Shown here piece by piece: positions 11,184 through 55,299 of a stretch of DNA of 64,000 nt. Every line of letters begins with the position of its first letter. The first letter of the stretch is position 1. Source of the stretch: Laetmonice hystrix (lineage: Eukaryota); the NCBI GenBank assembly GCA_965235115.1, contig OZ249436.1, positions 25,856,001 to 25,920,000 of the forward strand, read 5' to 3'. Made by a program: the position numbers and the translations under genes. The notes below the pieces were generated by a model, which saw nothing but the letters and a program-made list of their open reading frames with translations, had not been told where the DNA came from and did not search any database.

Positions 11184-11758
11184 AGGCATCTTGAGTTGTC
11201 AAGGGGCATCGCGCATCCTGCATTCTACCCCTTGAGTGCAGCCTATGCTAACCGGGCGGAAGTTGACCCTGAGGTCAACCTTATGAATATTAATAGGACC
11301 TGTCATCGGCGCTCCACCTGCACTAACGGTCCCACCGAAGGCTTACTTCTCGCAAAAATGCCTGATAGCCTTGCACAGGTCGCTGATAAACAAATGTGTC
11401 GCTCCCTAACAATACAGTTAGTTATAGTGTGTGTCCTTGCAGCCCTGTCAACTCAAAGTTGTTCCTCTCACTGTCACTATAGTGTCAGGATTAAATGCCT
11501 ACCCGTTGCTGCTATCGTTGGCTTCGCCATTGCTTCGACAACAATAACTTTACCGTGGGAACGTTCCCATTGGCTAACCAGAAATGCACTCTAATTTTTA
11601 TGAATCGCGCCACAGGCAGTGCTCCAATCTCATGGCGCGGCCGCAGACGGGGAAACACGTGGCGCTGCGAGGAACGCGTTTCTAAGAATAGACGGGCAGG
11701 CGGGAGGGGGATGAATCAACTGCAAGTGCAAAGGTTCAACCCCGAGCGGGGGAGGATG
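11184..11758. mobile_element. Unclassified ~575-bp insertion in a HINE sub-TIR
   Basis: Splits GGATCCCATCCCC|GGGGTGACATG (intact at 5388 and 9406); ATCCCC duplicated at 11178-11183 and 11759-11764. Confidence 0.75.
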
Positions 11759-29012: not shown

Positions 29013-30122
29013 CTATAAAAGAGTCAGAAGTCCAGCTTCTGACAAAAACTCTAAAATCACTCCTGGTCTGACATTGTTAAAAAGATCCTTAAGACTTGTC
29101 TCACTATAAAACCGTTGTCTGATCAGAGTAAAATCACCACACTCAAGTAAAACATGCTTCAGTGTCAAAGGACACTGACAGCCATGACACTCTGGAGGTG
29201 GCTCCCCCTTCAATAAAAACACGTGGGTTAATCTAGAATGACCAATCCTGCATCGAGTATAAACAATTTCATGCCTACGTTGGGTTAGGCCGTGAAGACA
29301 CCTTTGGTTCACGACAGGACTGATCTGATACAATTTATTTTTTGGTTGTTCATCCCATTCAGCCTGCCATTTGTTCTTAATGTAAGCCCAGATGGTAGGT
29401 CTGAGGTCAGAGGCTGGGATTGGACACAGTTCGACGTCTGTTTCAAGAGCCCTCTTGGCAGTTCTGTCAGCTTGCTCATTGCCCGGGATACCAACATGCC
29501 CAGGCACCCAGCAAAAGTGAATATCAAAGTTTGCATTGGCAAGCACTGCCAACTTGGACAAGATTTGAACGATCACTGGGTGATCTGTGTTCAAGTTAGC
29601 AAGTGCTTGCAGACAGGATAAGGAATCCGAGAAAATGAGGAAATCCTTTTCACTAGAAACTTCAATATTTTCAAGGGCAAGAAGCAGGGCCCGGGCCTCT
29701 GCTGAGAAGATGGAACTTTGCCCTGAGATGCGGGTGCCGAAGTTGTGCTTGCCATGAACTGCAGCCGCAGACACATCACTGCCATCCTTTGAGCCATCTG
29801 TATAGAAGGCATAATGTGAGGGATACTCCGCCTGGACGCCAAGAAAATGTTCAAAATATGTCAGGGGATGAGTCTCCGACTTCTTCAGTTGAGCCAACTG
29901 AAGAATGACGTCAGGCTTTTCCAGGTCCCAAGGAGGAATGTTGCAAAAATGTGTCTGCCCCAGGACGTTCAGATCAATATCCAGTTCCTCTAGATGAGGT
30001 TTCACCCTCAGTCCAAAAGGACGTATGTACGTTTCCTTTCTTTCATATAAATGTTGGAACCAAGGGTGAAAAACGCAATTGTAAGCTGGATTTGAACTGT
30101 TTGTCCCAAGCTTGACTGCATA
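29013..30122 (-). pseudogene. LINE ORF2 C-terminal part: RNase H and CCHC finger
   Basis: YTDGSK, SAEARA, FSDSLSCL, WVPGHVGIPGNEQAD, CHGCQCPLTLKHVLLEC. Confidence 0.9.
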
Positions 30123-31421
30123 CTAGTTTGGTATGGAGAAAAACCATCTCTCCTGTGAGGTATATTTTTACCTTGGGAGGCTGAGCTGTCAAAGTGACCA
30201 GCTAAAAATAACCAACAGGGCAGCTCAGCCGGCGGTGTAACCGGTCAGTCCCCACCTAACTAGGTCACTCATTAACATAAGCCGTTAATGCTTCTTTTTA
30301 AATTAATGTGTCCAAGGTTTTGTATCTTTTGTATCATTTAAATGATAAGATTGGTGTTAGTATGTTTTGTAGGCATTTCTATATTAGGAATATTCTGGTT
30401 TAATTTTTCAGATATGACTTTATAGAAAAAGGTGTGTTATAAAAGGTTTTTTCATAAATATTTAATTAGGTCACACCACATGGTGACCAGTATTTTTACC
30501 TTTGAATTATTTTTAGTGGTCAGCATCTTTATTTCATTTTAGCCACATGGTTTAATGTCTAACAAATAGGGAAGACCCTATCATGTCTTTACTAGAAAAA
30601 ACTATGTGTAATTTAATTTGTTCAGGGTGACAATTTCCCCAAACTCACGTTGCTTCCTGCTCTCTCAGGAGAAGCTATAAATACCACCCACATCTGGAGT
30701 TTCTCTCTCTCACGTGTTAGTCAGCCTGGATTCCACATCCTGTGGGGTCAGGCCACTGGACAGTTTATTCTACATTTTCAAATCGGATTCTTACTGTGCT
30801 TCAATGGACATCACTTGGACAATTCCCAGCAACATGGACAGTCTAAAGTGAACTCAACAAACGGGTGAACAATCTTTCATGGATTATATACGTGTTTCTG
30901 GATGTGTGTGTAACTCAAGGACTTGTACCCAGCCAGGAAACCATGGATTTTGTGCCCCACGTGGACTTCAGTTAATTTAATCATGCCACGTGCATTCTTT
31001 TTGGTGAGTGCATTTTTGTTGTGCTAGAGCCGGCAAGCCTACTGCTGTTCTTAACTTTTCTAACTGTATTTCGGCCATGGAGTGTCTGTGTCTACATCCT
31101 TGTACATTTCCGTCCACGTGCTTTGGCCTGGACGCCATTTTGTATTCTGGTGCCACACAGTTGGTTCCAGGTGCAATATTAGCTCACAACATGTCTTTTA
31201 AATAAAACCATTTACCCTGGATGTTCCATTTTAAACCATTTACCTTGTTATCTTTATAATATTCCCCGCTAGCTCTCCCTATTTTTCGTACCATCAATCG
31301 GTAAAATCTCAACAATTAAACTCCCCATCTCTAAATAACAAACCCCACTAAAGTACAAAAGTGGTGGAAATCCCTAAAACAATAAAACAACAACACAAAG
31401 AAAAAGACGGTACGAAACTAG
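30123..31421. mobile_element. Unclassified 1.3-kb insertion interrupting LINE ORF2
   Basis: Short TIR CTAGTTTGGTA / TACGAAACTAG; ORF2 homology stops at ...RRLKL and resumes at YAVKLG; no clean TSD. Confidence 0.65.
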
Positions 31422-33604
31422 CTTCAGACGCCTGTTGTCAAGCGATGGCTCTCGGGCCTCCACATACAGGCTCTGAACACGGGACGTTCTAAAAGCCCCA
31501 AGTGAAAGCCGCAAACCCTGGTGGTGAACCGTGTCCAAAAGCCGAATGTAAGACTTACAAGCAGAACCATAAACTATGCTACAGTAATCAAGCTTCGACC
31601 GGATTAAAGCTCTGTACAGTTGTAAAAGGACTGTACTGTCTGCCCCCCAGTTTGTGCCAGATAAAACCTTGAGAACATCCAGAGCCTTAAGGCATCTGGA
31701 TTTGAGTGATTTAATGTGAGGGATAAAAGACAGCTTGCTGTCAAAAGTGAGTCCCAGAAACTTTGTCTCCTTAACGACCTTGATAGGATCTCCATCCATT
31801 GTCAACTCAGGGTCAAGGTGGAAAGCACGCAGTTTGCAGAAATGCATGCAGACCGTTTTAGATTTTGAAAATTTAAAACCATTTTCCACCGACCAAGTGT
31901 GGATTCTGTTGAGACAGAGTTGGAGCTGCCTCTCAATGGCATTCATATTTTTGCCTCTGCAGCAGACGTCAAAGTCATCGACGAACAGGCTGCAGGGCAT
32001 GCCAGTTTTAACCGAGTTAACAATGCTGTTGATCTTAATACTAAAAAGGGTAACGGACAAAATGCTTGCAACTTGTTAAGGCTATTGGTCTGTAATTGTT
32101 AGCTTCACTATGGTCTTTTCCTGGTTTTGGGATGGGGATGATTATTGCTTCTTGCCAGGAAAGAGGTACATTACCAGATATCCAGATATTGTTGAAGATG
32201 TGAAGAAGAATGAGAAGGGTGGTGTCAGGTAGATGTTTTAAGAATTGGTAATGTATTTTGTCAGGTCCAACTGCAGTGTCATGTGATTTTTTAAGAGAGC
32301 ATCTTAGTTCTTTAATGGAAAAGAGTTGGTTATACTCTTCTGTGTTGTCAGAGTGGAAATTTAGTTTTTGTTTCTCTTTTCGAGCACGAATGGCTTGGAA
32401 TTGAGGGAGGCAGTTCCTGGAGGAGGAGTTTGTTTCAAAGGTTTTGGCCAGTTTATTTGCTATTTCATCTGTGGTGGTTAGTAGGGTGTCTTGGTGTTTT
32501 AAATGTTGGACTCCAGAACTACCTCCCTTGCCTTTCCGTATCATGCTCCAGACTTTTTTGATAGGAGTACGAGAGGTCAGGCTGGAGACATAGTCTCTCC
32601 AGCTCTACCTCCGTCTCTCTTTACAGATACGGCGTGCCCTTGCTCTTATGATTTTAAAGTTGGTAAGGTTCACTGCAGTTGGGTGCCTGTTAAAAAGGCG
32701 TTCTGCTTTCTTCCGGTCTTTAATTGCCTGTTTGCAGTCATCATTAAACCATGGATTTGAGACATGTTAGGAATTGTCGTGGTTTTAGGAACCGTCCTGT
32801 CTGCAATGGAGATAAAAGCGAGGTAAAATCATCCATTGCTTCAGGATCGTTAATGTTGTCTGCTCTGAATTCCTCCCGACAGAGGGCCTGGAAGGAGTGC
32901 CAGTCGGCTTTCTTAAGTTGCCACCTTTGTTGTTTTTCCCCAATGTCGGTCCTTATGGTAAGTATGGTGGGAAAGTGGTCACTCCCGCAAAGGTCATCCC
33001 AGACCCTCCAATAGAAATCCAGCAGCAGATCTGGTTCAGCTATTGCAAGGTCAATGGCTGTATAGGTTCCATGACCAGGATGTAGGTATGTGTTTGAACC
33101 ATCATTAAAAATGCATAGAGCATGATTATCAATGAACTCTTCAATCCTCTTGCCCTTGCCATCAGTTGTGGTGCCACCCCATAAGGGATTGTGGCCGTTA
33201 AAGTCTCCCAAAAGGAGATATGGGGATGGTAGTTGACCCACTAGATCATCAAGATCCTGTTGGGTCAAGACACTGTTTGGCGGAATATATATGGAACAGA
33301 TAGTGATGGCTTTATGCAGAGTTAGGCGAATGGCTATTGCTTGTAATGGTGTGTCTATTGTTACAGGGCTATGGATGAGGTCTTGTCGAACCAGAATGGC
33401 AGTGCCGCCAGCAGCACGGTCACCATCTGGTGCAAAACCAAAGAAAGTCTGATAGCCCTTAAATGAGACCTTGTCTCGGGCGGTAAGGAATGTTTCTTGT
33501 AAGCAAAAGGCAAAAGGGTTGAGGTTTTCTGCTAAAAGTCTGAGTTCATTAAAATTGGCTCTAAAGCCTCGACAATTCCACTGAAGGAAGCATTTGCCTG
33601 CCAT
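31422..33604 (-). pseudogene. LINE ORF2 N-terminal part: AP endonuclease and reverse transcriptase (frameshifts, internal deletion)
   Basis: LQWNCRG, CLQET, LLGDFNGH, GSDHFP; YRPIALTSC joined directly to ILSVTLF (middle of RT including PQG missing); FVDD; FLGLTFD. Confidence 0.9.
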
Positions 33605-35232
33605 CAAGGTGGTTTAACAGGCAAACGCCCCCTAGTTTTTATTTTGGGGAAAAGGCTGCGACTACGGCAAGATGTAGCGTCAGCCATTTCAACATCTTGA
33701 AGATGCTGAAACTTATTTGTGAGTGCTATTGCACTGTTGTTGGCGGCTGCCTTGGGCAGCCGATCTGTAATTATTTTCTTCTTTGGTTGATCTTTTTTGG
33801 GGGATGGTTCTTTGGTACTCTGTTGATCTTTTTTTGGAGATGGTTCTTTGGTACTCAGCCCAGCCTGTGGAGGAGGAACCGAGGTTGTCTGGCTCTGTGT
33901 TGAGACGGCTTTCTTAACCCTTTCGAGACGGGCCCCTTGTGGCCGAGACGTGCACTAGTGACGACGTAACAATTGCGTGAATGTGCCGTAAGGACGGGCC
34001 ATTCTGGGCGGCCACATGTGATAACGGATTGCCTTCCATGCTTCCAATCACTGTCATCCCCAGAAAAATGATCCATGTCTTAGACAAAAGTAGGGAATTG
34101 AGTCTAGAGTTGGTCTAGGTACAGCGCAGCTATACACAATGGGCTCTGACATAAGTCACATGATGCCTCAAGGCATCATCCGGCCCCCGCCCGGGAATGC
34201 CTCGGGGCATCATCCGGCCCCCGCCCGGGAATGCCTCGGGGCATCATCCGGCCCCCGTCGTTGACTTGAGATGGCAATCTTTGGTGGTTGACTCGTGCTG
34301 TCAGCAGGATCTGGGTAGGTCACCGGTTTATCTCCCTTGACCCACACCATCTCCGTTTGACAAGCGAAAGTCCGTGTGGTAGGCTTGGTGGCAGCAGCAT
34401 AGGTTTTAATGGTTGGTGGAAGCATATACTGCTCCACCAACTTGCGTGCCTCTGGAAAGCTGATCTTTCTTTCCATCTTTACCTTCAAAATTTCTTTTTC
34501 TTTTTTCCACACGGAACAGTCACGAGAAGTGGCAGAGTGGTCCTCCCCACAGTTTGCACATTTTGGGGGTTTTTGACGTTCCAGATGGCCAGTCTCAGCA
34601 CAGCGAGAACACTTCTGCTGATTCCGGCACGAGTCAGTCCCATGCCCAAACCTCTGGCATTTATAGCATCTCAGAGGGTTTGGGATATAGGCATCCACCT
34701 TTACTTTCAAAAAGCCAATCTCGAGTTCCACTGGTACAGTGGGCCTGTCGAAAGTGAGAAAATAAGTGTGTGTCTTTATGGTTTCACCATCTCGTTTCAC
34801 AATCAATCTTTTCACTTCCGACACACCTTGCCAGCTCAACCCAGCAAGGATCTCCTGTTCAGTTGTAGTGTCAAGAGAGTTTGTTCGAATCACACCCTTG
34901 CTTGAGTTGAGCGTCCGGTGACGAGAGGCCTTAATACTGTAACCTGCGAGTACTGTGGCACTCAACAGGTTCGCAGATTGGGCCCTCGTGGCACACTCTA
35001 CCAACAGTTGGCCAGATCTCAACCGTTTACAATCTTTGACTGTTCCAGCTATCCCCAATATGCCTTTATGTATGGCAAAAGGGGATAGCTTAGATGTTGG
35101 TCGTTCAGGTTCTGCCGATTCAACAATGATGAAACGAGGCCATTCAGTCAAAGGTTCGTTCTCCATAGACCGGTCCGAGTCAGAGTCCGTTAATTTCACT
35201 AGTTTTCGTTTGGGGGGATTGTTTGATGCCAT
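33604..35232 (-). pseudogene. LINE ORF1 (gag-like nucleic-acid-binding protein) interrupted by a MITE
   Basis: CYKCQRFGHGTDSC, CSRCAETGH, CANCGEDHSATSRDC; likely start MASNNPPKRK at 35232; TGATG stop/start overlap with ORF2 at 33602-33606. Confidence 0.85.
33918..34258. mobile_element. piggyBac-like MITE, copy 2 (inverted, one end eroded)
   Basis: TTAA-CCCTTTCGAGACGGG start; reverse complement of 24826-25214. Confidence 0.8.
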
Positions 35233-36577
35233 GGTTGTGTTAGAGTGTTTCACCAACCCTATTCCCCACCCTCCACGGAGCCCAACAAGGGGAAGTGCAG
35301 AGCTGCGGTAACCAGCAGTTGCAAACCAAGGATATAGGGTTGGTATACTCAAGCAATGGAAAGAAAGAGGGTGTTGCCATTACTCGATTGACCCTAAGCC
35401 ACCTAGGAATAAAGAAGAAATAGTTCTAGGAATAAAGAAGAAATAGTTACGATAGATGTTGCCTATTGTATTAGAGAATTAAATCCACTGTAAAGGGTAC
35501 TCAATACAAAAAATCCTAGGGCAAGGCGTGACCAGCCGATTGATTGGATCGGGCCTCTCCAACCTCCCGTCTAGGTGAAGTAGGAGCCAAAGCACCGTGT
35601 TGGACCTGTGAAAAGCCGCAGCGATTCACCGTCCTCAGGTACCAGGACCTCTTCCTCCACCGACACGGGTCGCGACTCACGGCAAACAAGTCGCCCCATT
35701 TATTCGCCTCTTACGAACAGCCAGGGGGGGCTGGGGAACATTCTTACCCCGGTCCCCACGGGGGGCCTCCCAGCAGGTGATTTGTGTATTCAGAGATGCC
35801 AACTGTCAGAGTGTAAAAATATTATTGTGAAGACTATACCCGTTAAAACTTACAATTCTGGCCATATTACCTTTCCAAAAAAAGAACTAAACAATCAGTA
35901 GTATACCTCAATCTATACATTTTGTAATTGTTGTATTTGTATATGGCTATCTTAAACAGGTTTAAGGTAGAGCCTGTCAACGTCAGATTACATTATTTCA
36001 TCATAAATAAAAAAGATATTGGTAAATTTATGAAAAGAAATATGCAAAGTGACCAATCGTCAATAGCAGCACATATCTAGTGACCAAATACACGATTCCT
36101 ATATGACTAAAGCAGTTTTAGAAAAAAATGTCAAAAGTGACAAACTTCAAAGTCACGTGGTTCGGCGAAAATAGGTCAAATCGCTAATCCCTGCAATCAT
36201 CTTGTGAACCTTTCGTTAGAGAGTGTTTCTGCCGAATATTGTCGAATTGTACCAAAAAATATAGAAGGAGAAGCAATTTAACCGATTTGTGACCAATGAC
36301 CCAGTTCACCCTAAGGTCAAAGGTCAAAGGTCAAATCAAGACTCAAATTGAGGCAGCACCTTTGGCTGATTATGAGGCCATGACGGGTTTTAAAAAAAAA
36401 TCCCAATATGAGCTTAAAAATGGCTTCAATTTTCATAATACGTTTGACGTCATCACGTCATGACGTGACGTCACATGACGTCAGGATTCGATGCCTGACT
36501 ATACTTTGTCATTGTCAAGATGTGTGCCAAATTTCATTTTGATATTTTGAAAATTGACTGAGATAGACATAAAAGTT

Positions 36578-36610
<33 letters not shown>

Positions 36611-37349
36611 AACGCCAAAAATAATACAGAAGACAAAACCACACAATTTCTAAATCCCATCCCCTCCGTAGGGGATGGGATAATAATAATAATACAGAAG
36701 ACGAAACCACACAATTTCAAAATCCCATCCCCTTCGTAGGGGATGGGATAATAACTAGCCCAACTGATTGCTAAAGCAATACAGGGATCCCTTCCCCTGA
36801 CGAGGAACAATGAAGCAATAATAAAAATAATGATAACGAGGCAATAGGTGTTGCTAGGCAACACCAGATCCCATTTCCCATTTATGTACATGACGTGCAC
36901 CTAGCCATGACGTGTACAACTACGTGACGTGTACCTAGCCATGAAGTGTACGTAGCCAAAACCAGACATGGCGATTAGTATGGCTATAACAATGGCACAA
37001 CAGGCATTGGTGTATTATGACGTCATTATGACGTTATACGTCACACGACGTCATAAGTCTTGGTGGCAACTAAAAGAGCATCTATGAGTTCCTATTCGGG
37101 TTCAATAGTAACTATGATCGTATCTAGCACCGTTTAGGAGTTACAGGCCTCTGAAAATCCTTAGAAAATGGCAATGACGTCATTATGACGTCATACATGA
37201 TGATAGGTCAAAAAGGCTGGTGGCATTCGAAAGAGCATATATGACTTCCTATTCATGTTCAATAGTAACCACGGCTCTATCTTACACCGTTTCAGAGTTA
37301 CCGCCATTTGTTTCTCAAAAATGGCTATGACCCAATTTCGATGTCACAT

Positions 37350-37837
37350 TGTAACGTGTTAAACGTGTTTTTAAAATAAAGTCTCACTACATGGCACAAC
37401 AGTTACCACTGGCCAACTTAACCGGACTCTCGACGGCCAGTGGAAATAGCAGCAGTCGACTCAGTGAGTGTTGAACCGAGAGTAACTTTATTCCTCCCCA
37501 AACTTTACCCATATACATCGTCTACATAGTATGGGCGTGTCCCGCCCGTGCGCATGCGTGGGGATTCATGGCACGGAGGGGGAGAGCCCGCCCCTCCTTA
37601 TAAGGCAAGGGGCGTGTCCACACGAGATGCACGGAGGCAACCTCATCCCTTCGTGAAATGTTTACTGCAATGGATAGTACATACCCTAATATATGCTACA
37701 CACAACGGAATATATGAAGAACCTAAATAAGGGGGTTATACCTTACATAAGTATGTATAAAGCAAATCTAAATAAAGCGATTATACCTTACATAACAATA
37801 TATGAAGTAAATCTAAATAAAGTGATTATACTTTACA
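37350..37837 (-). repeat. 3' LTR
   Basis: TGTAACG...CTTTACA, 488 bp; purine-rich tract AAGAGCGTGTGGGG immediately upstream on the minus strand. Confidence 0.95.
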
Positions 37838-37885
37838 TAACCCCACACGCTCTTTGTTAAAAACTCGCTTTTTAACACAGTAGGG

Positions 37886-39565
37886 CTACGTAGTTGTTTT
37901 AGATGTGGAAAGAATCGAGGACGGAATCCTCAGTACCGCCACGGATTTCGGCGGGGTTTCATCAGCTTCACCTAATGAAGACTTCTCAATCTCCCCGTGG
38001 AAACAATACTTCTTCTTAAAGTACAATACAAGAGTAATTATGATTCCGATCATGACAACCAACATTAGAATTAAGGGGGCAGGGTACAACTTTGTATGGT
38101 GGATAGTTGACAATGTTGGCAAAGGCTTCATAATGAGAGTTTGTTTGGGATCCAGGATAAGTTCATCATGAATCTTAAGAGTGTGCTTAATCTCATTATA
38201 CTGAACGGGCGTGAGAGAAGGGGGATTCCATCGTATTGGTATGTGTACAGTCAGCGGAATCTTCAATATGTGGTTAGAAACCGGTAGGGTGCGACCTACT
38301 CTCCAGACGACTACACAACGTTCCTTAGCGGTAATCAACGACGGGTTACATATCAGATGCACCGTATACGTCACATCAGGACAGTGAACTGTAATGTTTG
38401 TACAAGTCGTGATACTAACTAGCCACGTATCATTACCTAAAAACTTACTCACGATATGTGTGGCAGAACGGCTAACTTTATATTTACACGTAGGGTTGTC
38501 GCCTTTGATAATAGAAAGTTCACAATCGTCTACACTAGTCTGTGATACTTCACAAATACCCAATGAATGTCCACGGCAAGTCTGTGGCTCATACTGAGCA
38601 GTCAAGGTAGTGTCAGTTAAGATAGTAGACTGGGTAATGTACTTAGCCTTCAGGTCGCGATACGTAAACCACTGTGGCTGGAGTAACCACTGAGTGTACT
38701 CCGTTCTGGTAGACATCCACACAGAAACGACACATACAAGCGTGTCTGACTCGTCCCACATGACCTCCACTGGGGAATACGCGCGGTGCCAGGTCGCCGG
38801 CATGACCCACCCTACACGTGCCATCCGTAACAGTATCTTACCCAGCTGGTCATCGTCCAGTACATCACGGGCTAAATGCCCGTGGCGTAATGCTTTCATT
38901 GCTCTCCTGTACTGCTGGTTGCGAACCTGAGTCACGGCATGAATTGTTTCCAGTTGCTCCATCATATCGAGAGCTTGATGTAGAGCGTTATATGAATCAA
39001 GAGTCCTTTTGATTAACACAACTTGTTGCTCTGTCAGATTGACAAAATTGAAAAGGCTAACAATATCCTCATGGTTAATTTCGGCTTGGGCGCGCGTTGC
39101 ATTCAAGACAGTCACCATTTCTTTCTGGTTATGAAATAAAACATCTTGGCGTAAAACTGCTTCGTGAATTTGATCTCTTAAAGCGTCCACTTGATGTTCT
39201 GTTGCGGTTCCAAATAATTTAGATGAAAGTTCACCAATAATGTTCAACAGACCTCGCTTTGATCGTGCTGGAGTTGATAGCTGTTGTAGATGCTCATAAT
39301 GGGACCATAGAAGGCGGAGACGGAACCGGAGTGACTGTAAATTCCTGGCTGGGAGCTTTACAGCAGACAGACGCAGACCAGCCAAGACTGCGTCAATCCA
39401 TGATAACATTGGTGGTATTTCCGGTGGTTGTAGAGTAACAATAACCGTCCAGCGGTCAGTTAAAATCCATGCTCTCGCTTCACGGGCCAACAATACTCCA
39501 TTTGGTACTTCGGTTACTTGACCTGAACTTATCGCAAAAAGTGGTAGTATGCAAAGGAATAGCAT
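37886..39565 (-). CDS. env: Envelope glycoprotein, errantivirus/baculovirus F-like class I fusion protein (559 aa from MLFLCILP)
   Basis: Signal peptide MLFLCILPLFAISSG; furin site RSKR followed by fusion peptide GLLNIIGELSSKLFGTA; heptad-repeat region; Cys-rich ectodomain; TM LILMLVVMIGIIITLVLYF then KKK; located between integrase and 3' LTR. Confidence 0.88.
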   Translation of the reverse strand: MLFLCILPLFAISSGQVTEVPNGVLLAREARAWILTDRWTVIVTLQPPEIPPMLSWIDAVLAGLRLSAVKLPARNLQSLRFRLRLLWSHYEHLQQLSTPARSKRGLLNIIGELSSKLFGTATEHQVDALRDQIHEAVLRQDVLFHNQKEMVTVLNATRAQAEINHEDIVSLFNFVNLTEQQVVLIKRTLDSYNALHQALDMMEQLETIHAVTQVRNQQYRRAMKALRHGHLARDVLDDDQLGKILLRMARVGWVMPATWHRAYSPVEVMWDESDTLVCVVSVWMSTRTEYTQWLLQPQWFTYRDLKAKYITQSTILTDTTLTAQYEPQTCRGHSLGICEVSQTSVDDCELSIIKGDNPTCKYKVSRSATHIVSKFLGNDTWLVSITTCTNITVHCPDVTYTVHLICNPSLITAKERCVVVWRVGRTLPVSNHILKIPLTVHIPIRWNPPSLTPVQYNEIKHTLKIHDELILDPKQTLIMKPLPTLSTIHHTKLYPAPLILMLVVMIGIIITLVLYFKKKYCFHGEIEKSSLGEADETPPKSVAVLRIPSSILSTSKTTT

Positions 39566-39842
39566 CCTTCTAGGTGTGGTGGGAACTTCTCCAGTAGACA
39601 GAGTTAATACGTTGTTTGTATGAGTGTGAGGGGTCATCTGAATTCCTAGCTTCCAGCAGTCGCCTTTTAGATCTGGTCGCACGCCATGGCGGGGATGTTT
39701 GCCAGTCCATATGTTCCTCAGGCAGGGAAATGTCCGTTTTACGTCTGCGTGTGTCAGGAGAACCATCAGGGGAGGCATCTGGAAACGTTCTTTTGTGTAT
39801 GTTTATATTTGATCGGGGCATACGGTCAATACGTCGGCGCCG

Positions 39843-42800
39843 TCAAGGAGGACTGTGGACATCAACATCTTGAACTCGTCGACGCCGTGACATATGGGGT
39901 TCAACATCAGGGGTGCCAGCCGTGACAGCTGTATCAACCGTGCCCTTCCTACCAAGGTTTGCAGGTGGTAGCCATCGTGGTGGTCGCGAAGATCGTTTCA
40001 CACGGGGCTTGACCATAGACCAATCATCTATTGCGGCCGGCAATACCTTGTCACGATTGACAACACGTTTATGTCCGGTACGTTGGTCTTCTAATGAAAT
40101 TACAGACCCTCTCACCTGGGTGACAATGTACGTGTGATCCCACCTCGGATCAAGGGGGGCATGTTCACTCACTTTAATAACGGCCTTGTCTCCAACTGCT
40201 AGCGGTGGTGCATTAGCTCGGGACTGAAGACGAGCAGTGTTGAACCTGCGTGATTCTTTAGTCTCCATGGCAGCTTTCCGAAAAACCGATACTAGATGGC
40301 TGTAAGGTAACATGGCATCAGTCTCTACATCATATAACGGATGTGCAGGTACATCAGGTTCCCGACCATACTGCAAGAAGTATGGAGTAAATCCATTGAC
40401 GGATGGTGTAATGCGGTAGGCCCATAGAGCAGAGCCTAATTCTTCCTCCCAACTTTCGAATCTGGTGTTTGTCAGTTTACTCAGGATTGTTTTGATTGTA
40501 CGGTGTGCCCTTTCTAACCGACCATTTGTTTGGGGGTGATATGGGGTCGTACTGCGGTGATCAACTTGAAGGAAATGTAAATAATCCTTGAGGTCTCGTC
40601 CTTGAAACTCCATCCCACGGTCAGTGATCAAGACCTTGGGTATGCCAAACCTTGGGATGTAATCATTCTTGAGGTGATGGAGAACGTACTGTTGACTTTT
40701 CTGTGGTATGGGATACGCCTCGATCCAAGCAGTGGCATGATCCATGACTGTTAGTAAATAACGATTGCCATGCGGGGATGCAGAGAAAGGTTCTACCAGG
40801 TCAGCTGCAGCAATGTCTCCTGGTAAAATGGCTAATGGCATATCCGTGGGTGGGGGATAATGTATCCTGTCACTGTGAACACAACACAAGGGGCATGATT
40901 TGTAGAGATCGGTAGAGGTCTGCCACATGGCAGGCCATTTGTAGTGCTCCTGTAATTGCTTTAACACCTTCCTTGTACCGGCATGACCCAAACGTTCGTG
41001 ATAAGTGATCCACAGTTTGGACCTTACTGAGCTCGGTACCCACAGCCTAGGGTAATCAATGTCACGTCTAGCTGGTCGTGTTGTACACAGAAATCCCTCC
41101 AACATGGTCCACCCATTACCACTTGGCGTGCCTGAACCAAACTCCTTCATTTGTTCTTGTCTGACCGTAATGGGATCCAGACCATCAAGCTTCAACCTGC
41201 CACAATAATAGTCATCAGACGGTGCATTTGCCATTACCGGCAACGGGGACCACATAGTTTCAGAGTCTCTGTTTGTTTGAAGGCCAGGGAGACGCGATAA
41301 CATATCAGCACGTTGGTTGCACTCACCCTTAATGTACTTGATGGGAGCACCATATTCGGCAATAAGCATGGCCCAACGCTGCACCTTTGTATTGTTCACC
41401 TCGCCTAAGAACATAGCTTTTGAAAGGTTTGTGGTCAGTGAAGATTTCAAAGTCAGCTCCATAAAGATAGGGACGTAACATTTTTAATGCATGGACAATT
41501 GCGTATGCCTCCCGTTCCATAGCAGGCCATAGTCTTTGCGTTTTGTTGAGAACATGGCTCACAAATTGGACAGGTCTAGGGTTGTCAGCCTCATCCCTTT
41601 GCACTAAAATCGCACCCACAGCATTGGCAGAGCTGTCCGTATACAGTTAAAATGGTTTACCCATGTCCGGGTGATGCTGGACAACTTTGTCTGAACATAA
41701 CACTGTTCTAAGATAATCAAAGGCGTCCTGATGTGTATCAGTCCAGCGCCAAGCAGCATGTTTGCGGGTCAAGTCTGATAATTTTGAAGCATACTCTGCA
41801 TAACGAGGTATCATACTCCTATGAAACCCGACCATTCCAAGGAAACGTCTTACACTTTTAATATCCGTAGGAGGTTGCATGTCCCTAATAGCACTCACTT
41901 TCCCAGCCTGGGGGCGAACTCCGGTGCCGTCTATGGCAAATCCAAGCAATTTGATACTCCTCGCATGAAACACGCATTTATCAGCTTTAATTGTGAAACC
42001 CGCTGAAGTTAACAAGCGCAATACCTCACGTACATGTTTTTTGTGTTCCTGCTCCGTTTTTGAGTAAACACAGATATCGTCCAAATAGACCATTGCGAAA
42101 TAACCAATAGCAGGCCTAAGAACATTGTTCATACACCTTTGGAAGGTAGCTGGTGCAGTCTTTAAACCAAAGGGCATTCGCATGTATTCATATAATCCCT
42201 CATGGGTACAAAACGCAGTTACAGAAATACTGTCTGGATGTACGGGTAGCTGATGGAATCCATTTTTTAGGTCCAAAAGAGAGAAATATGAACACCCTCC
42301 AACACTATCTAACACATCCGAGACACGCGGGAGTGGATGAGCATCATGAACAATTTTTTTGTTTAATTGTCGATAGTCAATGCACATGCGTGTACTCCCA
42401 TCTTTCTTTGGGACCAGAGTTACAGGAGAGGCCCAGGGCGACGTTGATGGACGAATTATTCCTTGTGCTAACAATTCCCTTACCTGACTTTCAATCTCCT
42501 TACGTTTCCTTAAAGGAGTACGGTATGGTCGCTGACGGATAGGGATATGGTCCTCACCAATGTCAACACCATCTGAACATCAGGGTTACATCCAATAGGG
42601 TTTCCGTCTTGCCCAAACAGTGAAGGAAATTCTTTTAACCAATAATCACTCCAAGTATGCAGCTCACTTACAGAGCGTCCTGACATAACTCCTATGCTGC
42701 GGTGACAGTGATCATTAATGTACACACAGTTGTTTTTTAAGTCAATCCGGGCTCCCAGTGCGCGCAAAGCATCATCACCCAAAATCATGGACTCCTTCAA

Positions 42801-43058
42801 CATAATGCTCGTTATGTACACCCTCAGTAGAGTTCCATAGACGGTAATTTCCCCTTTTCCGACTATGGGAATGTTATTTCCGGTAACACCCTGAAGTTGC
42901 TCTGAGGACTTCACACAGTTAGGGCACCTTAAGTCAGAACAATAGTGTTTCCAGGCCTCTAAAGAAATAACTGTGCGTGCCGCTCCTGTGTCTACCAGGG
43001 CAGGTATCCGCTCCCTCCCCACTGGGAGTTCGATACACAGCCTGGTGTCACTTAGTTT
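39843..43058 (-). pseudogene. pol: pol (protease, RT, RNase H, integrase) with two frameshifts and one premature stop
   Basis: LVDTGA; SPWASP, RMCIDYRQLN, MPFGLKTAP, YLDD; LYTDSS, EREAYAI, FTDHKP; HHCC and D-D-E. Breaks near 42565, 41647 (TAA) and 41420. Confidence 0.92.
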
Positions 43059-43061
43059 TTT
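43055..43061 (-). promoter_or_regulatory. -1 ribosomal frameshift slippery heptamer A AAA AAC at the gag/pol junction
   Basis: GCA AAA AAC TAA ends gag; the -1 frame is open through LSDTRLCIELPVGRERIPALVDTGA. Confidence 0.8.
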
Positions 43062-43669
43062 GCATTATTGTTTTTCTTGCCCTGACGCTTCTCATCATCC
43101 TTAATTTTCTTATGGCACTCGCGTTTGTAATGGCCAGCTTTACGGCAGTAGTAGCAAATGACTTGGTTACCTGTGGGCTGTTGTCCTGTCAGCACGTTCT
43201 TCAAATCCGACAGCTGAGCTGCCATGTCAGCCATTGCCGTGAAGATATCCTTCGAATTAATATCAGTTGCCCGCCCTGAAGCTGAAGTCATGGCTCCTAT
43301 CTCCATGGGCTCTTCTATTCTCAGTGGAGGGCGCAGCCAGGCGCTACGTGCGTCGGCCTGTAGGGCGGCTTGGAAAGCTTCCTCGGGGGTTGTTGGATTA
43401 GCATCCGCTGTACAATAACGGACACGCTCATTTGCCAAACCGTTAATAAAGACCTTGATGATGTGACGTATGATCTTCCGTCCTGTCAGATCCTCTTCTG
43501 AATAGGCTCTGTTCATTCTAATCTTGAACTGTGCGACGTATTCACACACAGGCTGGTAACTTGCCTGGCGGTAGGTGTCGACTTCCTTTACACTGCGATC
43601 CTCTTCCTCCCCCGATACACACTGCCCCCTGATATGTGTTAGCAAACCAGCCAGGGTTGGACCTGCTGG

Positions 43670-45106
43670 CAGGGGCGCCGCTGCCTATTTCGAAGTGGGG
43701 GGACAATCTTGGTGTGTTTGACCTCCCCCCCCCGAGATTTATGTACCATAAGAATTGCAAAATAACAGTGTATTCACCCCCCCCCCAAGGGGCGGACCCA
43801 GGATTTTCTTTGCGGGGGGTTGGGGGTGTCAGAAGGTGCCACGCGCAGAAAGGGGGGGGGGCTCCGACTTTGGGAATATAAAAGGCCATCGGTGCTATTT
43901 CCCGGCTTCTCAGCATCAAAAGAGCTTTTGGTGCCGACCTTTTGCTCAAGATTAATGTATTAATCAGGGGGCTTGCCCCCCTTAGATCCTCCTTTTTTGT
44001 ATGAAGATGTATTATTAGTACCTACAGTTACAATGAAATCATGCCGAGCGTAGCGAGGCAAAAAAATTTTTTTAGGTGGGCCCCACCTGGCCGTTGACAT
44101 CACAAAAAACAGTATCAAGCAATATTTATCAGAAGCCATAAAAGTTGACGATTAGGCCTAAAACACACTTTTACCAAATAAAATAGAGACCGTCCCCATC
44201 CTACTTGCCACTTTCTATTCTACCACACTAGGTCTAGTATAATTGGTAAACCTCACTCATTATTTCAATACATTCACGCATGAGGTCTTTTTCTTCAAAA
44301 TCAAATAGAAAGGCCCAACATGGGGGTGAAAAATGTTGACGGCCGCAGGCCTAACGCTGTCAGACAATAATTAAAGCGTGGCCTAGATTTCCTAGAGCTT
44401 AAGATTGACCTGAATATTCAGGTCTATGAGCTAAGCAAGAGACGGTATGGCAGATCCAGCTTTTTCAAGTAGGGGAGGCAACGTTTTTAGGGACGCAACC
44501 GGTGTGACTGTACGAGCGCCGAAGGCACACAGCTTTGCTTGGGGGTCCGGGGGCATGCCCCCCCCCGAAATTTTTAAATTCAAGGTGTAATTTGGTGAAA
44601 TCTGATGCATTTTGGAGCACAAAGCTATTTAAAGACCAATGATGTCAAAAGTCTTATGTAGCCTACAATGCCGTGAGGCGCCATGAACGGCAGGAGGGGC
44701 GCCATGAAATATATATATTTTAGGGGGGTCCAGACCCTATGTTACCCCCTACCGTGGATCCGCCAGTGTGGTAGGACTAAGGTAGGCCTACACAGGGAAG
44801 CTGCAGGGGATCTAGGCCGCGGTTAGGCCCATATTAATTATAGAACAGCAAAGCATAGACCTATCTCCTAAACACATGACATAGGCTTAGGCCTGCGAAG
44901 GCCAAGATTAAAAATGATGAAAATCTATCTTTAATTTGCTCCCATGGGAAATTCACCTTAAAAAGCTAGGCATAGGGAGTATAAAAAGACCTGTAGATCT
45001 ATCTATTAGGCCTGCTTCAACTTCAAGGAGCCTTTGACCTTTTTAGGTCGCCAGCAAAAGTGGGGGGGACATGTCCACCCCATCCCCCCCGGCAGCGGCG
45101 CCCCTG
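43670..45106. mobile_element. Non-autonomous TIR element inserted in gag
   Basis: 16-bp TIR CAGGGGCGCCGCTGCC / GGCAGCGGCGCCCCTG; 6-bp TSD TGCTGG; contains further MITE-like fragments. Confidence 0.88.
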
Positions 45107-45413
45107 TGCTGGGGTATATGTATCGATAGCTTGCACAAGACTCCCTGATGTTTGGGAAGCCAATTCTTCTCGCGCCTCCTGTGGAGTCAGGCCATCCACA
45201 AAGCGAAAGGCAAGTTCGGCCCGTTCGAGCCACAGCCGTAAACTTGACTGGTTGACGCCATCACATGGGGTAACATCCTTCATGTTCGAACTGTTGTGGT
45301 GTAAGTTCAGCGTTTGCCATTTTCAGAGATGTGGTTTTCTTTTCTTCTTATACCATACGTATATTTTCCAGGGTATTGAATTCGTGCCACTGGGTCCGAT
45401 TGTTAAATAATCG

Positions 45414-45432
45414 GCCCCACATTAGGGCGCCA
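45414..45432 (-). promoter_or_regulatory. Primer-binding site, tRNA-Lys(CTT)-like
   Basis: TGGCGCCCTAATGTGGGGC, 2 nt after the 5' LTR; canonical Lys PBS is TGGCGCCCAACGTGGGGC. Confidence 0.75.
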
Positions 45433-45434
45433 AA

Positions 45435-45922
45435 TGTAACGTGTTAAACGTGTTTTTAAAATAAAGTCTCACTACATGGCACAACAGTTACCACTGGCCA
45501 ACTTAACCGGACTCTCGACGGCCAGTGGAAATAGCAGCAGTCGACTCAGTGAGTGTTGAACCGAGAGTAACTTTATTCCTCCCCAAACTTTACCCATATA
45601 CATCATCTACATAGTATGGGCGTGTCCCGCCCGTGCGCATGCGTGGGGATTCATGGCACGGAGGGGGAGAGCCCGCCCCTCCTTATAAGGCAAGGGGCGT
45701 GTCCACACGAGATGCACGGAGGCAACCTCATCCCTTCGTGAAATGTTTACTGCAATGGATAGTACATACCCTAATATATGCTACACACAACGGAATATAT
45801 GAAGAACCTAAATAAGGGGGTTATACCTTACATAAGTATGTATAAGGCAAATCTAAATAAAGCGATTATACCTTACATAACAATATATGAAGTAAATCTA
45901 AATAAAGTGATTATACTTTACA
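45435..45922 (-). repeat. 5' LTR
   Basis: 488 bp; only two substitutions seen against 37350-37837. Confidence 0.95.
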
Positions 45923-48900
45923 CATGGTATGCTAAAAATAGTGCACAACCCTTAGTCTGATCCCGCCATGGAGATTCCCTGGTATCAATTTGGGCTCGAT
46001 TTGTCAAAAATTGTTGGAGGAGAGGCGAATTAGTCACATTTTGAGCTGTGACCTAGATTTCAAGAAGGTCAAAGGTCAGAGGTCAAATTGATGAATAAAA
46101 TTATTCCCTCTCAAGTGGCAAGCTAAGTGCTATGAATGAATTTTCTCTAACTGATCATGGGACTGGTACAATGAGGCACAATGAGGTACTTCCCAAAACA
46201 CCAAATTACGTCATGACGTCACGTCATATGACGTAAATCTTGGTGTCATTTGAAAGAGCATCTATGAGTTCCTATTCGTGCTCAATAGTAACTATGACCC
46301 TATCTAGCACAGTTTAAGAGTTATAGGCCTCTGAAAATGCCAATGACGTCATTATGACGCTATACGTCACATGACGTCATAAATCTTGGTGTCAATTGAA
46401 AGAGCATATGACTTCCTATTCATGTTCAATAGTAACCATGGCTCTATTTTAGATCGTTTCAGAGTTACAGCCATTTATTTCTCAAAAATGGCTATGACCC
46501 AAATTCAATGTCACATGCCATTTCTCTAGTTTCAAAGTTTAGCACCAGGTCGCAGCACGCCTCGGCAATATCCCGGGTCAGGGCCTGCCACATATCGCCA
46601 TGTGGTAGGAAGGGGGTCCCCGATATGCTAGTCCCAATATGCGGCAGGTAGGGGGTTCCTCATATTTAATAGGCCTATTGAGTGAGGAAGTTCTAGTCCC
46701 AATAGATATGGGGAAGGTAGGGGGTCCCTGATATTTAGCCGACATATTGATATGTGACCATCCCTGGCCCAGATATTCTCAATTAAATACAATACAATAT
46801 GTTTATTCACAACCTCGATGGAGGCAAAAGAACAGGGTCAGGGATAGTATAGTATAGTAGCACTGCTCACTCCATCTGCCGCCGCCAGGGCCTGGCCCCC
46901 TAACGTGAGTACAGTGTATAGTCGAGATGTGCTGCTACCTGGTGTCAAACTTCGCCCCTCCCCCCACGGTTGATTGTGTGCTAATGAGATGGGATTTCAT
47001 TTCTCACTCCGACGCTCACTCAAGTTGAGTACTCAAATTTCACTCAGATCGACCGTCTGAGTGTAAGAGAAACGCATTTTACTCAAATTCCACTCAAATA
47101 TGGCTTGAGTGGAATTTGAGTGGATTTGACTGTAAAGTAAGAAAAACCGGGCCCTGGTGTCAAACTTCGCCCCCCCCCCCCACAGTTGATTGTGTGCTAA
47201 CGAGATGGGATTTCATTTCTCACTCTAGCCATTTCCTTAGCCAAAACGCAGCCATACTTTTTCAAACGTTACACACAAGGAGCTAAAATGTTTAATCTAT
47301 ACATCGACTTTCAAAGCAAAAGTCTACATTAAATATTTACAAAGACAGGCATCAGTAGCAATTCAAAGCAGTAGTAGCAGCAAGCAGAACGTGATAGCTC
47401 CTGAGAAGAGTCTATGCTTGATGTGCGACAGGTCTGGCGATCTATTCCCCATTAAGTCATTTGCTGTTTTCGTTTTGATGGTTTTTTTTCGACTGAATTG
47501 GAAAAATATTATGTTTCTCCCCTTGACAATTGCCAGTCATTTGGCTACAGATAATTTACAGCTATATTTCACGTTTAATGACGAAATATGCAGCATATAC
47601 GCCACTGTCTGCAGTGTCACTGTCAGTGTGGACTTACTATGGAGTATGGTATGGAGAACGCCATTGGATTTAACTGAGATTCGTTAGTAAATAGCTTCGG
47701 TCTTCACATGGCGAGTTCCATTCCGAGACTTGGAATCTTCTCTTCAAAGTTGCCTGACATTGAGCTAAATATGTCCCTGAAGTACTCCCCTATTTATAGA
47801 TAGAAACATTAGATACTTATTTATACAGAGGCCGGTCGGCTCAGTGTCTGCAGTCGGCCCCTTCCAGCAGACAACGAGCGGTGACCCGACGACACTCACG
47901 AAAGAGGTTTCTAGGTCACTCGATCAGTGGTCAAATTGCCTGTCTCTCTTCACGACCTTCTCTTATATAATTGATCTCCCTGTTGTTAATTATATATTTA
48001 ATCAATTGAAATTTATAATATCTTAAAGTAGACAGTTTAAAGTCCACACCGTGTAAATATTAAAATGCTGAGCTTATTGTTCCGTAGTTGAGAAGTGCCC
48101 CAAAGTAAAGAAGAGATCACGTTGCAGATGACGTTGCAGATGACGTCACAGGTCACGTGGCACCAAAAATATGGTACCTAATTAAAGTAGACATAAACCT
48201 TTATAAGGTTCATTTAAAAATATGGCTCTATCTCAAATCGTTCATGAGTTACAGCACAAAATCTTCCAAATGACCCAAGTCAAGCTCAAGTTCAAAACTT
48301 TCAGGTCACGTGGTTCAGCGAAAATAGGTCAAATCGCTTATCCGGTTCTGGAATCTGGTTGAGCTGTCCCTAGAGAGTGCCTGTGCGACATATTATCAAG
48401 ATTTATCCAAAAAATGGGAAGAAGTAATGATTAAACCGATTTGCGAGCTAGGGACCAGGTCTGTCTAAGTTCAAAGGTCAAAGGTCAAATGAAGGGTCAG
48501 ACTTATGCAGCACCCTTGCCCGACTAAAACACCTTGACGAGTTTTGGAAATTCCCAAGATGAGGTTCAAAAATGGGCTAAATGTACAAAACACGTTTCAC
48601 GTCATGACGTCATGACGTGACGTTACGTGACGTCATGACGCACCATGAGATCAGAGTTTGTCATCGTCAAGACGTAGCCCAAGTTTCATTGAGATATCTT
48701 GAAAAATGACTGAGATATACTTATAGGTTTACGACTACTACGACTACTACTACAGGCATAAAAATAAGGAAGACGAAACCAGACAATTTCAAGATCCCTT
48801 CCCCTATCGGGGGAAGGGATAATAATAATAATAGGGAAGACGAAACCAGACAATTTCAAGATCCCATCCCCTGACGGGGGATGGGATAATAATACAGAAG

Positions 48901-49889
48901 ACGAAACCACACAATTTGAAAATCCCATCCTCTCCGTAGGGGATGGGAAATACAGAAACCGAAACCAGACAATTTCTAGATCCCATCCCCTTGATAGGGG
49001 ATGGGATAACTAGACCTGTCGTGGATAAAACCACGATGGATCCCATCCCTTGGGGGACATGTCCCTATGACTTATTAGTGAGGTCCTGATTATGACGTGT
49101 GATGTCTCGATACGTATTATGTTGTGGTGTTAATCAAAAGAACATGTCTATGTCTGCCTATTCGTGTTGAATAGTAGCTATGGCTGTATCTTGGAAGGTT
49201 TATGACTAATAGTAAATGTAAATGACGTTATTGTCATATTATGATGTCACCTTACATCGTAAAGCTTGGTGTCAATAATTATTGAAAGAAAGTGCATGAC
49301 TTCCTAGCTCAATAGTAGCCATAGCTGATCTTGCACCGTTTTTGAGTTATAGGCCATAGAAGATAGTAATGACGTCATTATGACGTCATACGATGATATG
49401 TCACGCTACCGGTGGAAGGGGAAGGGGTCACACTACCCCCCCCCCCTCAACTTGGCATGTATTCGCCCCTACCCCAAGTCACATCTTGGCGAAAGCTTTG
49501 TGCCCGCCTCCTACGGCCTAGCAGGCCTAACGGTCACATCCACCCCCTTCTACAGGACATGGGAGAGGGGTCACAAAAGTTTCAAGGGGCCACAATTAGG
49601 GGAAGGGGTCACACTACCCCCCTCCACTTGGCATGTATTCGCCCCTACCCCAAGTCACATCTTGGCGAAAGCTTTGTGCCCACCTCCTACGGCCTACCAG
49701 GCCTAACGGTCACATCCACCCCCTTCTACAGGACATGGGAGAGGGGTCACAAAAGTATCAAGGGGGCACAATTAGGGGAAGGGGTCACACTACCCCCCTC
49801 AACTTGACATGTATTTTGCTCCAACAGTCCACTGCCCGGCCGCCGCCCGGTGTAGCAATGCCAAACTGAATTTTCTTTTCAGATTGATC

Positions 49890-54200: not shown

Positions 54201-55299
54201 ATCCACCCCCTTCTACAGGACATGGGAGAGGGGTCACAAAAGTTTCAAGGGGCCACAATTAGGGGAAGGGGTCACACTACCCCCCTCAACTTGGCATGTA
54301 TTCGCCCCTACCCCAAGTCACATCTTGGCGAAAGCTTTGTGCCTGCCTCCTACGGCCTAGCAGGCCTAACGGTCACATCCACCCCCTTCTACAGGACATG
54401 GGGGAGGGGTCACAAAAGTTTCAAGGGGCCACAATTAGGGGAAGGGGTCACACTACCCCCCTCAACTTGGCATGTATTCGCCCGTACCCCAAGTCACATC
54501 TTGGCGAAAGCTTTGTGCCCGCCTCCTACGGCCTAGCAGGCCTAACGGTCACATCCACCCCCTTCTACAGCACATGGGAGAGGGGTCACAAAAGTTTCAA
54601 GGAGCCACAATTAGGGGAAGGGGTCACACTACCCCCCTCAACTTGGCATGTATTCGCCCCTACCCCAAGTCACATCTTGGCGAAAGCTTTGTGCCCGCCT
54701 CCTACGGCCTAGCAGGCCTAACGGTCACATCCACCCCCTTCTACAGGATATGGGAGAGGGGTCACAAAAGTTTCAAGGGGCCACAATTAGGGGAAGGGGT
54801 CACACTGCCCCCCTCAACTTGGCATGTATTTTGCTCCAACAGTCTAGTCACATCTAGGTGAAAGCTTTGTGCCCGCCTCCTACGGCCTACCAGGCCTAAC
54901 GGTCACATCCACCCCCTTCTACAGGACATGGGAGAGGGGTCACAAAAGTTTCAAGGGGCACAATTAGGGGAAGGGGTCACACTACCCCCCTCAACTTGAC
55001 ATCTGTGTCGCCCTACAGCTCAGTCACATCTAGACGGTCACGATCTCTGATGTTGTAGTGCACTTGTACACAACAGCCGTAAGATTTATAGTAGTTAAGT
55101 CACTGACTCTTTGTACCTATCAAGATGATGATAACTTCAAATATCAAAGACTCCAGGGAAGAAGAGTACAACCTGTCTTGTTTCAGGAATACAGATTGTC
55201 TTATAAATACAACTAGACCTCCATATTGCAGGCAATCAGGTATTCCATTCTTCTATGGATGTATCTAGAAAGGCTGTGTAAGGCATGAAAGAAAGTTAA

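What the first reader, a model, noticed from the sequence alone, without database searches (positions are those of the whole stretch)
37886..39565. Intact F-type env in a young gypsy provirus: candidate infectious invertebrate retrovirus lineage
Env shows every class I fusion hallmark (signal peptide, RSKR|GLLNIIG..LFGTA, coiled coil, Cys-rich domain, TM) and is the only undamaged ORF of the provirus. Gag retains a CCHC knuckle and the PBS is tRNA-Lys-like, unlike classical Drosophila gypsy, and the repeat landscape suggests a non-insect host (inference). An intact env beside broken gag/pol could reflect chance, trans-complemented packaging or early co-option.
Basis: partly seen in the sequence, partly recalled or inferred. 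Interest (0 to 1): 0.7.

Follow-up and report, generated by a model that had tools for sequence, protein, structure and literature searches.

The report
Decaying envelope-carrying gypsy provirus copy
This is a real viral-type membrane-fusion gene inside a young but already broken retrotransposon copy, of a kind already catalogued across invertebrate animals; its open reading frame looks like chance survival, not adoption by the host.

Summary
39565-37886 (minus strand) encodes a 559-aa F-type class I fusion protein (model pLDDT 82; RSV F E=4e-12, baculovirus F E=1e-20). It is ORF3 of an 8.6-kb Ty3/gypsy provirus whose 488-bp LTRs differ at 2 sites. Gag is split by a 1.4-kb DNA-transposon insertion; pol has two frameshifts and a stop.

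The interpretation needs lowering. Env-F gypsy elements outside insects are already catalogued (about 1,500 elements of both Env types, eLife PMC13524379), including polychaete Env-F ones with tRNA-Lys primers. This one has their 'ancient errantivirus' Pol bridge. The Lys primer does not set it apart, since Drosophila gypsy uses one too.

Env's survival needs no selection. Chance leaves it untouched 25-35% of the time, its differences from sibling copies are 13 replacement to 5 silent (omega about 0.9), and relatives show both env-intact/pol-broken and pol-intact/env-broken copies. One oddity remains: the interior has diverged more than the LTR pair predicts (P 0.003-0.013), which suggests re-mobilisation of a damaged parent in trans, or LTR conversion. 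Infectivity and expression are untested.

Verdict: new member of a known kind, low interest.

The parts
45435..45922 (-). 5' LTR, 488 bp, TGT...ACA
   Evidence: ungapped match to the 3' LTR with 2 mismatches
45414..45432 (-). Primer-binding site, tRNA-Lys(CUU)-like, 2 nt after the LTR, imperfect
   Evidence: tRNA 3' end taken from the eLife supplement
45107..45283 (-). gag, 5' part (true start uncertain; an upstream ATG at 45320 is in another frame)
   Evidence: no Pfam hit for this piece
43670..45106 (.). 1437-bp non-coding insertion in gag with perfect 16-bp terminal inverted repeats and a 6-bp flanking duplication; high-copy DNA-transposon (MITE-like) sequence
   Evidence: contig depth in the thousands to tens of thousands over it
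43052..43669 (-). gag, 3' part with Retrotrans_gag-like region and one CCHC knuckle
   Evidence: both hits below the curated cut-offs
43055..43061 (-). A AAA AAC heptamer at the gag/pro overlap: probable natural -1 ribosomal frameshift site, not a lesion
   Evidence: the role is inferred from established retroviral frameshift signals (own knowledge)
39843..43064 (-). pol (PR-RT-RH-mini-domain-IN), broken by a frameshift near 42550, an in-frame stop at 41647-41649 and a frameshift near 41420
37886..39565 (-). env, 559 aa, F-type class I fusion protein; uninterrupted
37841..37855 (-). Polypurine-tract-like stretch, 3 nt before the 3' LTR
   Evidence: read (12 of 15 purines)
37350..37837 (-). 3' LTR, 488 bp; flanks share a 3-bp exact duplication (4 bp if the LTR's first base is counted)

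Best explanation
A recently integrated, non-autonomous copy of a multi-copy Ty3/gypsy family of the 'ancient errantivirus' type, carrying an F-type env. In working members of the family, Gag and a -1-frameshifted Gag-Pol would package the RNA and prime on tRNA-Lys. Env would be secreted, cut by furin at RSKR to expose the fusion peptide, and anchored by its TM segment as a trimeric class I fusogen that lets particles enter neighbouring (probably germline) cells, as in Drosophila gypsy. The anatomy and fold are shown here; translation, cleavage and infection are inferred by analogy. This copy cannot replicate alone. Its env is open because too few disabling hits have accumulated, not because it is selected.
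For: Fold: Foldseek PDB best hit RSV F E=4.1e-12; BFVD best hit baculovirus F E=9.7e-21; VIA-align Z 12.0, rmsd 5.1, 283 aligned to RSV F; a profile of 91 relatives hits PDB 9w4d 'fusion protein' at E=3e-13; 12 of 14 relatives scanned hit Baculo_F at E<=0.0006. Gypsy order PR-RT-RH-IN; helices plus three short strands between RH and IN, as described for the ancient group. Chance: P(env escapes 3-4 lesions) = 0.25-0.35. Differences from dominant sibling contigs in env are 5 silent to 13 replacement, against 23-29% silent expected under neutrality. omega<=0.3 is rejected for env (P=0.023) and omega<=0.5 for the 29 pooled coding sites (P=0.017). Sibling contigs differ from the window by gaps in both frameshift-bearing stretches. 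Among relatives, at 14 contig lengths shared by Env and Pol cluster members: 6 both full-length, 3 env full/pol broken, 1 pol full/env broken, 4 both broken.
Against: The silent/replacement count uses only the 18 env sites among the 40 best-supported rows shown (251 rows hidden). It is unpolarised and comes from one sample; omega=0.5 is not rejected for env alone (P=0.18). The protein shows no excess damage: it departs at 7 of 37 well-conserved columns, like its six closest relatives (7-10), and at 1 of 35 columns invariant in those six. The LTR pair is more alike (2 differences) than the interior divergence predicts (8-10 expected), so simple decay in place does not fit by itself. The Env-Pol pairing of relatives is inferred from equal contig lengths, not from DNA.
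Confidence: 0.8

Rival explanations
1. Compatible refinement: the copy descends from an already damaged parent whose RNA was packaged and reverse-transcribed in trans by intact siblings. That would reset the LTRs while keeping older neutral damage inside.
For: The interior differs from dominant sibling contigs by 0.8-1.0% (34 of 4096 and 45 of 4432 letters, longest listed pieces of X1 and X2), predicting 8-10 LTR-LTR differences; 2 are seen, P=0.013 and 0.003. The differences are neutral-like. Both LTRs, the PBS and the PPT are retained.
Against: Gene conversion between LTRs gives the same pattern. The 1.4-kb insertion in gag must either have been carried through packaging or have arrived within the short LTR-divergence time. 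No second copy sharing these lesions was seen; no genome is held and contigs drop rare variants.
Confidence: 0.4
2. Env-donor lineage: defective copies are kept and spread because they supply Env to siblings, so env is under purifying selection while gag and pol decay.
For: Env is the only open gene; conserved columns show no excess damage; the LTR/interior mismatch allows trans-mobilisation; 3 relatives show env full with pol broken against 1 the other way.
Against: Env differences are 13 replacement to 5 silent. A 3:1 ratio is close to what pol being about twice as long predicts. Sibling contigs cover env throughout, so the family has other env sources.
Confidence: 0.07
3. Early host co-option of env (syncytin- or Iris-like, or a receptor-blocking restriction factor).
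For: Intact ORF with LTR promoter and splice-like signals upstream.
Against: LTRs 99.6% identical, so very young; neutral-like substitutions; chance suffices; the locus is a repeat-only neighbourhood with no host ORF of 140 aa or more recognised.
Confidence: 0.03
4. The pol lesions are assembly errors and the copy is intact apart from the gag insertion.
For: Contigs of the runs that hold this stretch differ from the window by gaps where the two frameshifts lie.
Against: Changes over the stretch are transition-rich (115 of 197 places in X1) and the LTR pair is nearly identical, which argues for accurate sequence. The gag insertion has perfect inverted repeats and a duplication, so the copy is broken either way.
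Confidence: 0.07

Closest known systems
'Ancient errantiviruses' with F-type Env (Chary and Hayashi, eLife, PMC13524379)
   Same: LTR-gag-pol-env-LTR order; F-like Env with signal peptide, furin site, fusion peptide and TM; RNase H followed by a mini-domain; multi-copy; a tRNA-Lys(CUU) PBS is listed for three polychaete ENV_F elements.
   Different: Their catalogue holds intact copies only; this copy is defective. Whether this exact family is in the catalogue was not tested, because no reference sequences were at hand.
Drosophila errantiviruses (gypsy, ZAM, Idefix)
   Same: F-type Env as ORF3; the Gypsy group primes on tRNA-Lys (PMC3383448).
   Different: They lack a CCHC knuckle (PMC3383448) and have a pseudo-RNase H bridge (PMC13524379). 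This element has the knuckle and a mini-domain. Infectivity is shown only for them.
Bdelloid rotifer TelKA LTR elements (PMC5408684)
   Same: About 600-aa paramyxovirus-F-like ORF3 in a non-insect gypsy-like element. The dUTPase between PR and RT that TelKA has is also present in this element's two nearest Pol relatives.
   Different: This element has no dUTPase. TelKA Env is described with cysteines bridging the two cleavage products; 80 of 91 sequences here have no Cys in F2.
Baculovirus F and pneumo-/paramyxovirus F proteins
   Same: Same fold family, RxxR plus fusion peptide, Cys-rich F1.
   Different: 10-16% identity; shorter F2 (about 90 aa) without Cys; encoded by a retroelement.

Membership tests
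Ty3/gypsy (Metaviridae) | LTRs with PBS and PPT; PR-RT-RH-IN order | tested here: met
Errantivirus, operational sense (env-carrying Ty3/gypsy) | Third ORF encoding an F- or gB-type fusogen between the LTRs | tested here: met
F-type Env | Signal peptide, furin site, fusion peptide, head-and-stalk F fold, TM | tested here: met
F-type Env | Cysteine in F2 able to bridge to F1 (as described for TelKA and paramyxovirus F) | tested here: not met
   no Cys in query residues 20-104; none there in 80 of 91 aligned sequences
F-type Env | Trimer formation, cleavage, fusion activity | not tested
   monomer model only; no complex prediction was run; activity cannot be assayed here
Ancient errantivirus group | RNase H followed by a mini-domain (N-terminal helices, three small strands), no pseudo-RNase H | tested here: met
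   H70-77, H82-93, E103-106, E109-112, E124-126 at block pLDDT 84-96, then the IN zinc domain; definition
Ancient errantivirus group | Placement in the published RT tree (positions A1-A11) | not testable with these tools
   no reference sequences held; the tree has unnamed near relatives only
Insect (Drosophila-type) errantiviruses | Pseudo-RNase H bridge; NC without zinc knuckle | tested here: not met
   definitions
Intact/active errantivirus copy | Three uninterrupted ORFs | tested here: not met
Co-opted env gene | Purifying selection on the locus | tested here: not met
   5 silent of 18 listed differences, omega about 0.9; partial list, limited power
Co-opted env gene | Fixed orthologous locus and expression | not testable with these tools
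   no genome held; one sample only

The most novel reading that the evidence does not exclude
This copy belongs to a non-autonomous, env-keeping sub-lineage that is copied in trans by intact siblings and supplies them with a disulfide-free F2/F1 fusogen: a helper/donor partnership inside an infectious retrovirus-like family of a non-insect invertebrate. The LTR-versus-interior mismatch and the undamaged conserved columns leave this open; the neutral-like substitutions count against it.
Probability: 0.07. Interest if true: 0.6.

Novelty: new member of a known kind. Interest (0 to 1): 0.24.

Why it matters
Whether Env makes gypsy elements infectious outside Drosophila is open; PMC13524379 says transmission by env 'remains elusive' for most elements. 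This locus adds one more young family from a divergent Env sub-branch: the closest relatives are 36-40% identical over long alignments, none carries a name, and Pfam misses it. A defective copy is a poorer place to study that question than the intact multi-copy elements already listed. Its modest value is as a worked example that 'intact env beside broken gag/pol' arises by chance, and as a possible case of trans-mobilisation.

Tried and rejected
Direct Pfam and PDB sequence searches with Env alone found nothing relevant. No whole genome is held, so copy number, empty sites and full dN/dS could not be computed. No RNA holder listed; this is no evidence either way. Loci of Env relatives were not obtained: the alignments were too diverged for the metagenome scan, and 0 of 32 pattern matches in viral contigs were confirmed. 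No named close relative was found: none of the members read in 30 clusters carries a name, and a profile search returned none at 1e-20. RT against phage records: no match. The Env tree did not finish, so env-pol congruence rests on the RT tree and on rank order. The host phylum was not established: a 146-bp tandem array and an RNase H-bearing LINE recall molluscs or other lophotrochozoans (recalled; only a search listing was seen). Rfam: 0 matches. Earlier scan findings: none. Rejected: the gag/pro frame change as a lesion (it has a slippery heptamer); the weak spike-protein hits (stalk/TM region only); contig depth as copy number (single-copy depth unknown); PMC6238403 as a source on env (0 occurrences).

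Full report
Observation. The ORF is real. 39565-37886 on the minus strand gives 559 aa from ATG to stop. It has a hydrophobic N-terminus, RSKR at 101-104 followed by a hydrophobic fusion-peptide-like stretch, four N-glycosylation sequons, nine ectodomain cysteines and a TM segment near 496-515. It lies inside a provirus bounded by 488-bp LTRs at 45435-45922 and 37350-37837 that differ at 2 positions, with a short target duplication. A tRNA-Lys(CUU)-like PBS follows the 5' LTR and a purine-rich tract precedes the 3' LTR. Pfam finds a gag-like region with one CCHC knuckle (both below cut-off), then protease, RT, RNase H and integrase in gypsy order.

Damage. Gag is interrupted by a 1437-bp insertion (43670-45106) with perfect 16-bp inverted repeats and a 6-bp duplication. 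Against intact relatives, pol changes frame near 42550 and near 41420 and has a stop at 41647-41649. The gag/pro frame change is probably natural: an A AAA AAC heptamer sits in the gag frame just before the stop (role inferred). Env aligns to its relatives in a single frame.

What Env is. Pfam and PDB sequence searches with the protein alone found nothing relevant. The ESM Atlas put Baculo_F clusters first (0.96) and Fusion_gly clusters at 0.92, with a low recognition score. An exhaustive search gave 489 relatives at E<=0.001; the best three are 38-40% identical. I aligned 91 sequences: the 90 proteins of 520-660 aa among those held at that point, plus P0008. The profile hit PDB 9w4d 'fusion protein' at E=3e-13, and 12 of 14 relatives scanned hit Baculo_F, 5 of them above the cut-off. 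The model has mean pLDDT 82. It matches RSV F (E=4.1e-12), baculovirus F (E=9.7e-21) and, without Foldseek, pneumo- and paramyxovirus F (best Z 12.0, rmsd 5.1, 283 aligned; the first eleven rows are all F proteins). One hallmark is missing: F2 has no cysteine here, nor in 80 of 91 sequences.

The family. Four public runs of one sample hold the stretch; none is on record as RNA. Their contigs cover gag, pol and env with several variants per site. They differ from the window by about 1%, and by gaps in both frameshift-bearing stretches. The window's copy is thus one of several, and its frameshifts are not shared by the dominant contigs. Single-copy depth is unknown, so I give no copy number. The RT groups with seven unnamed Pol proteins at 100/99 support in a 48-row tree. 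Four of these share contig lengths with the closest Env relatives, which suggests env and pol are inherited together. That pairing is inferred from lengths, and long contigs may hold several elements.

Why env is open. With 3-4 lesions spread by length over gag, pol and env, env escapes 25-35% of the time. Of the 18 env differences among the 40 rows shown (251 hidden), 5 are silent and 13 change a residue, against 23-29% silent expected without selection. That gives omega about 0.9; omega<=0.3 is rejected (P=0.023) but 0.5 is not (P=0.18). Pooled with pol and gag sites, 6 of 29 are silent and omega<=0.5 is rejected (P=0.017). In three related families, at 14 contig lengths shared by Env and Pol members, 6 have both full-length, 3 env only, 1 pol only and 4 neither (at most 15 members are listed per cluster). 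This is roughly what gene lengths predict. Against my reading, the protein shows no excess loss at conserved columns (7 of 37, against 7-10 for the six closest relatives), so it may still work.

An unexplained mismatch. The interior differs from the dominant contigs by 0.8-1.0%, predicting 8-10 differences between the LTRs if all arose after insertion; 2 are seen (P=0.013 and 0.003). The neutral-like spectrum argues against a working subfamily. The simplest readings are that a damaged parent was re-copied in trans, resetting the LTRs, or that the LTRs were homogenised by conversion. I cannot separate these without the genome.

Mechanism. Shown: the anatomy, the fold, the breaks and the multi-variant family. 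Inferred by analogy with Drosophila gypsy: a spliced env message, furin cleavage, trimer formation, and entry of particles into germline cells. Candidate donor and acceptor dinucleotides exist but are no more than candidates. This copy cannot make Gag or Pol.

Comparison with what is known. PMC13524379 (I read the abstract, Results section 5 part 1 of 2, sections 6, 7 and 8, Discussion part 1 of 2, term passages, part 1 of 34 of supplementary file 1, and 30 of its 194 'Lys' places) reports intact env-carrying gypsy elements in most invertebrate phyla, in a table of 1,513 rows. It defines an 'ancient' group by an RNase H plus mini-domain bridge. The folded bridge here has two helices and three short strands, which fits. 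Of the 30 Lys rows seen, 3 are polychaete ENV_F elements with Lys(CUU), 1 is a Daphnia gB-type element and 26 are dipteran. PMC5408684 (passages) describes a paramyxovirus-F-like env in rotifer TelKA. PMC6238403 was seen in passages only; the other papers only as search listings. The unread parts of the eLife supplements could list this very family; I could not test that. The host phylum is not established.

Verdict. A genuine F-type env in a young, defective copy of an ancient-type errantivirus: a new member of a known kind. Chance explains the open env, co-option is unlikely, and infectivity is untested. Interest 0.24.

Noticed in passing
proteins P0191, P0192: The two nearest Pol relatives by tree path (65% RT identity; clusters of 63 and 11 members) carry a dUTPase between PR and RT (E about 1e-44), which this element and P0193 lack: gain or loss within one small clade. 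Precedent in rotifer TelKA/Juno/Vesta (PMC5408684); the eLife main text has 0 mentions of dUTPase.
   Followed up: partly
window 39566-39265 (env F2) and alignment A1: 80 of 91 Env sequences have no Cys in the F2 region, so the two subunits are probably held together without a disulfide. Cys278 (2 of 91) and Cys388/Cys406 (4 of 91 each) are sub-lineage specific.
   Followed up: partly
window 43670-45106: Composite high-copy insertion with 16-bp perfect inverted repeats and a 6-bp duplication; it appears to hold further nested short elements. Superfamily not assigned.
   Followed up: partly
window 37709-37841 and 45794-45922: The LTR U3 begins with about three copies of a 45-bp AT-rich unit, perhaps an enhancer or insulator array.
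   Followed up: no
window 14570-16042 (-): Uninterrupted 490-aa DDE_3 (Tc1/IS630-like) transposase ORF.
   Followed up: partly
window 29013-35379 (-): Near full-length LINE with ORF1, endonuclease, RT and C-terminal RNase H, in several frames; I/Nimb-like by recall.
   Followed up: partly
window 52550-55002 and 49417-49815: 176-bp tandem array, 13.9 copies at 96% identity, GC-rich.
   Followed up: no
window 5600-12700, 37000-37350, 46200-46520, 58955-59308: Dispersed short arrays of a roughly 146-bp unit. The provirus sits inside such a very high-copy repeat, and contigs join across the insertion site from 37347 to 45966.
   Followed up: partly
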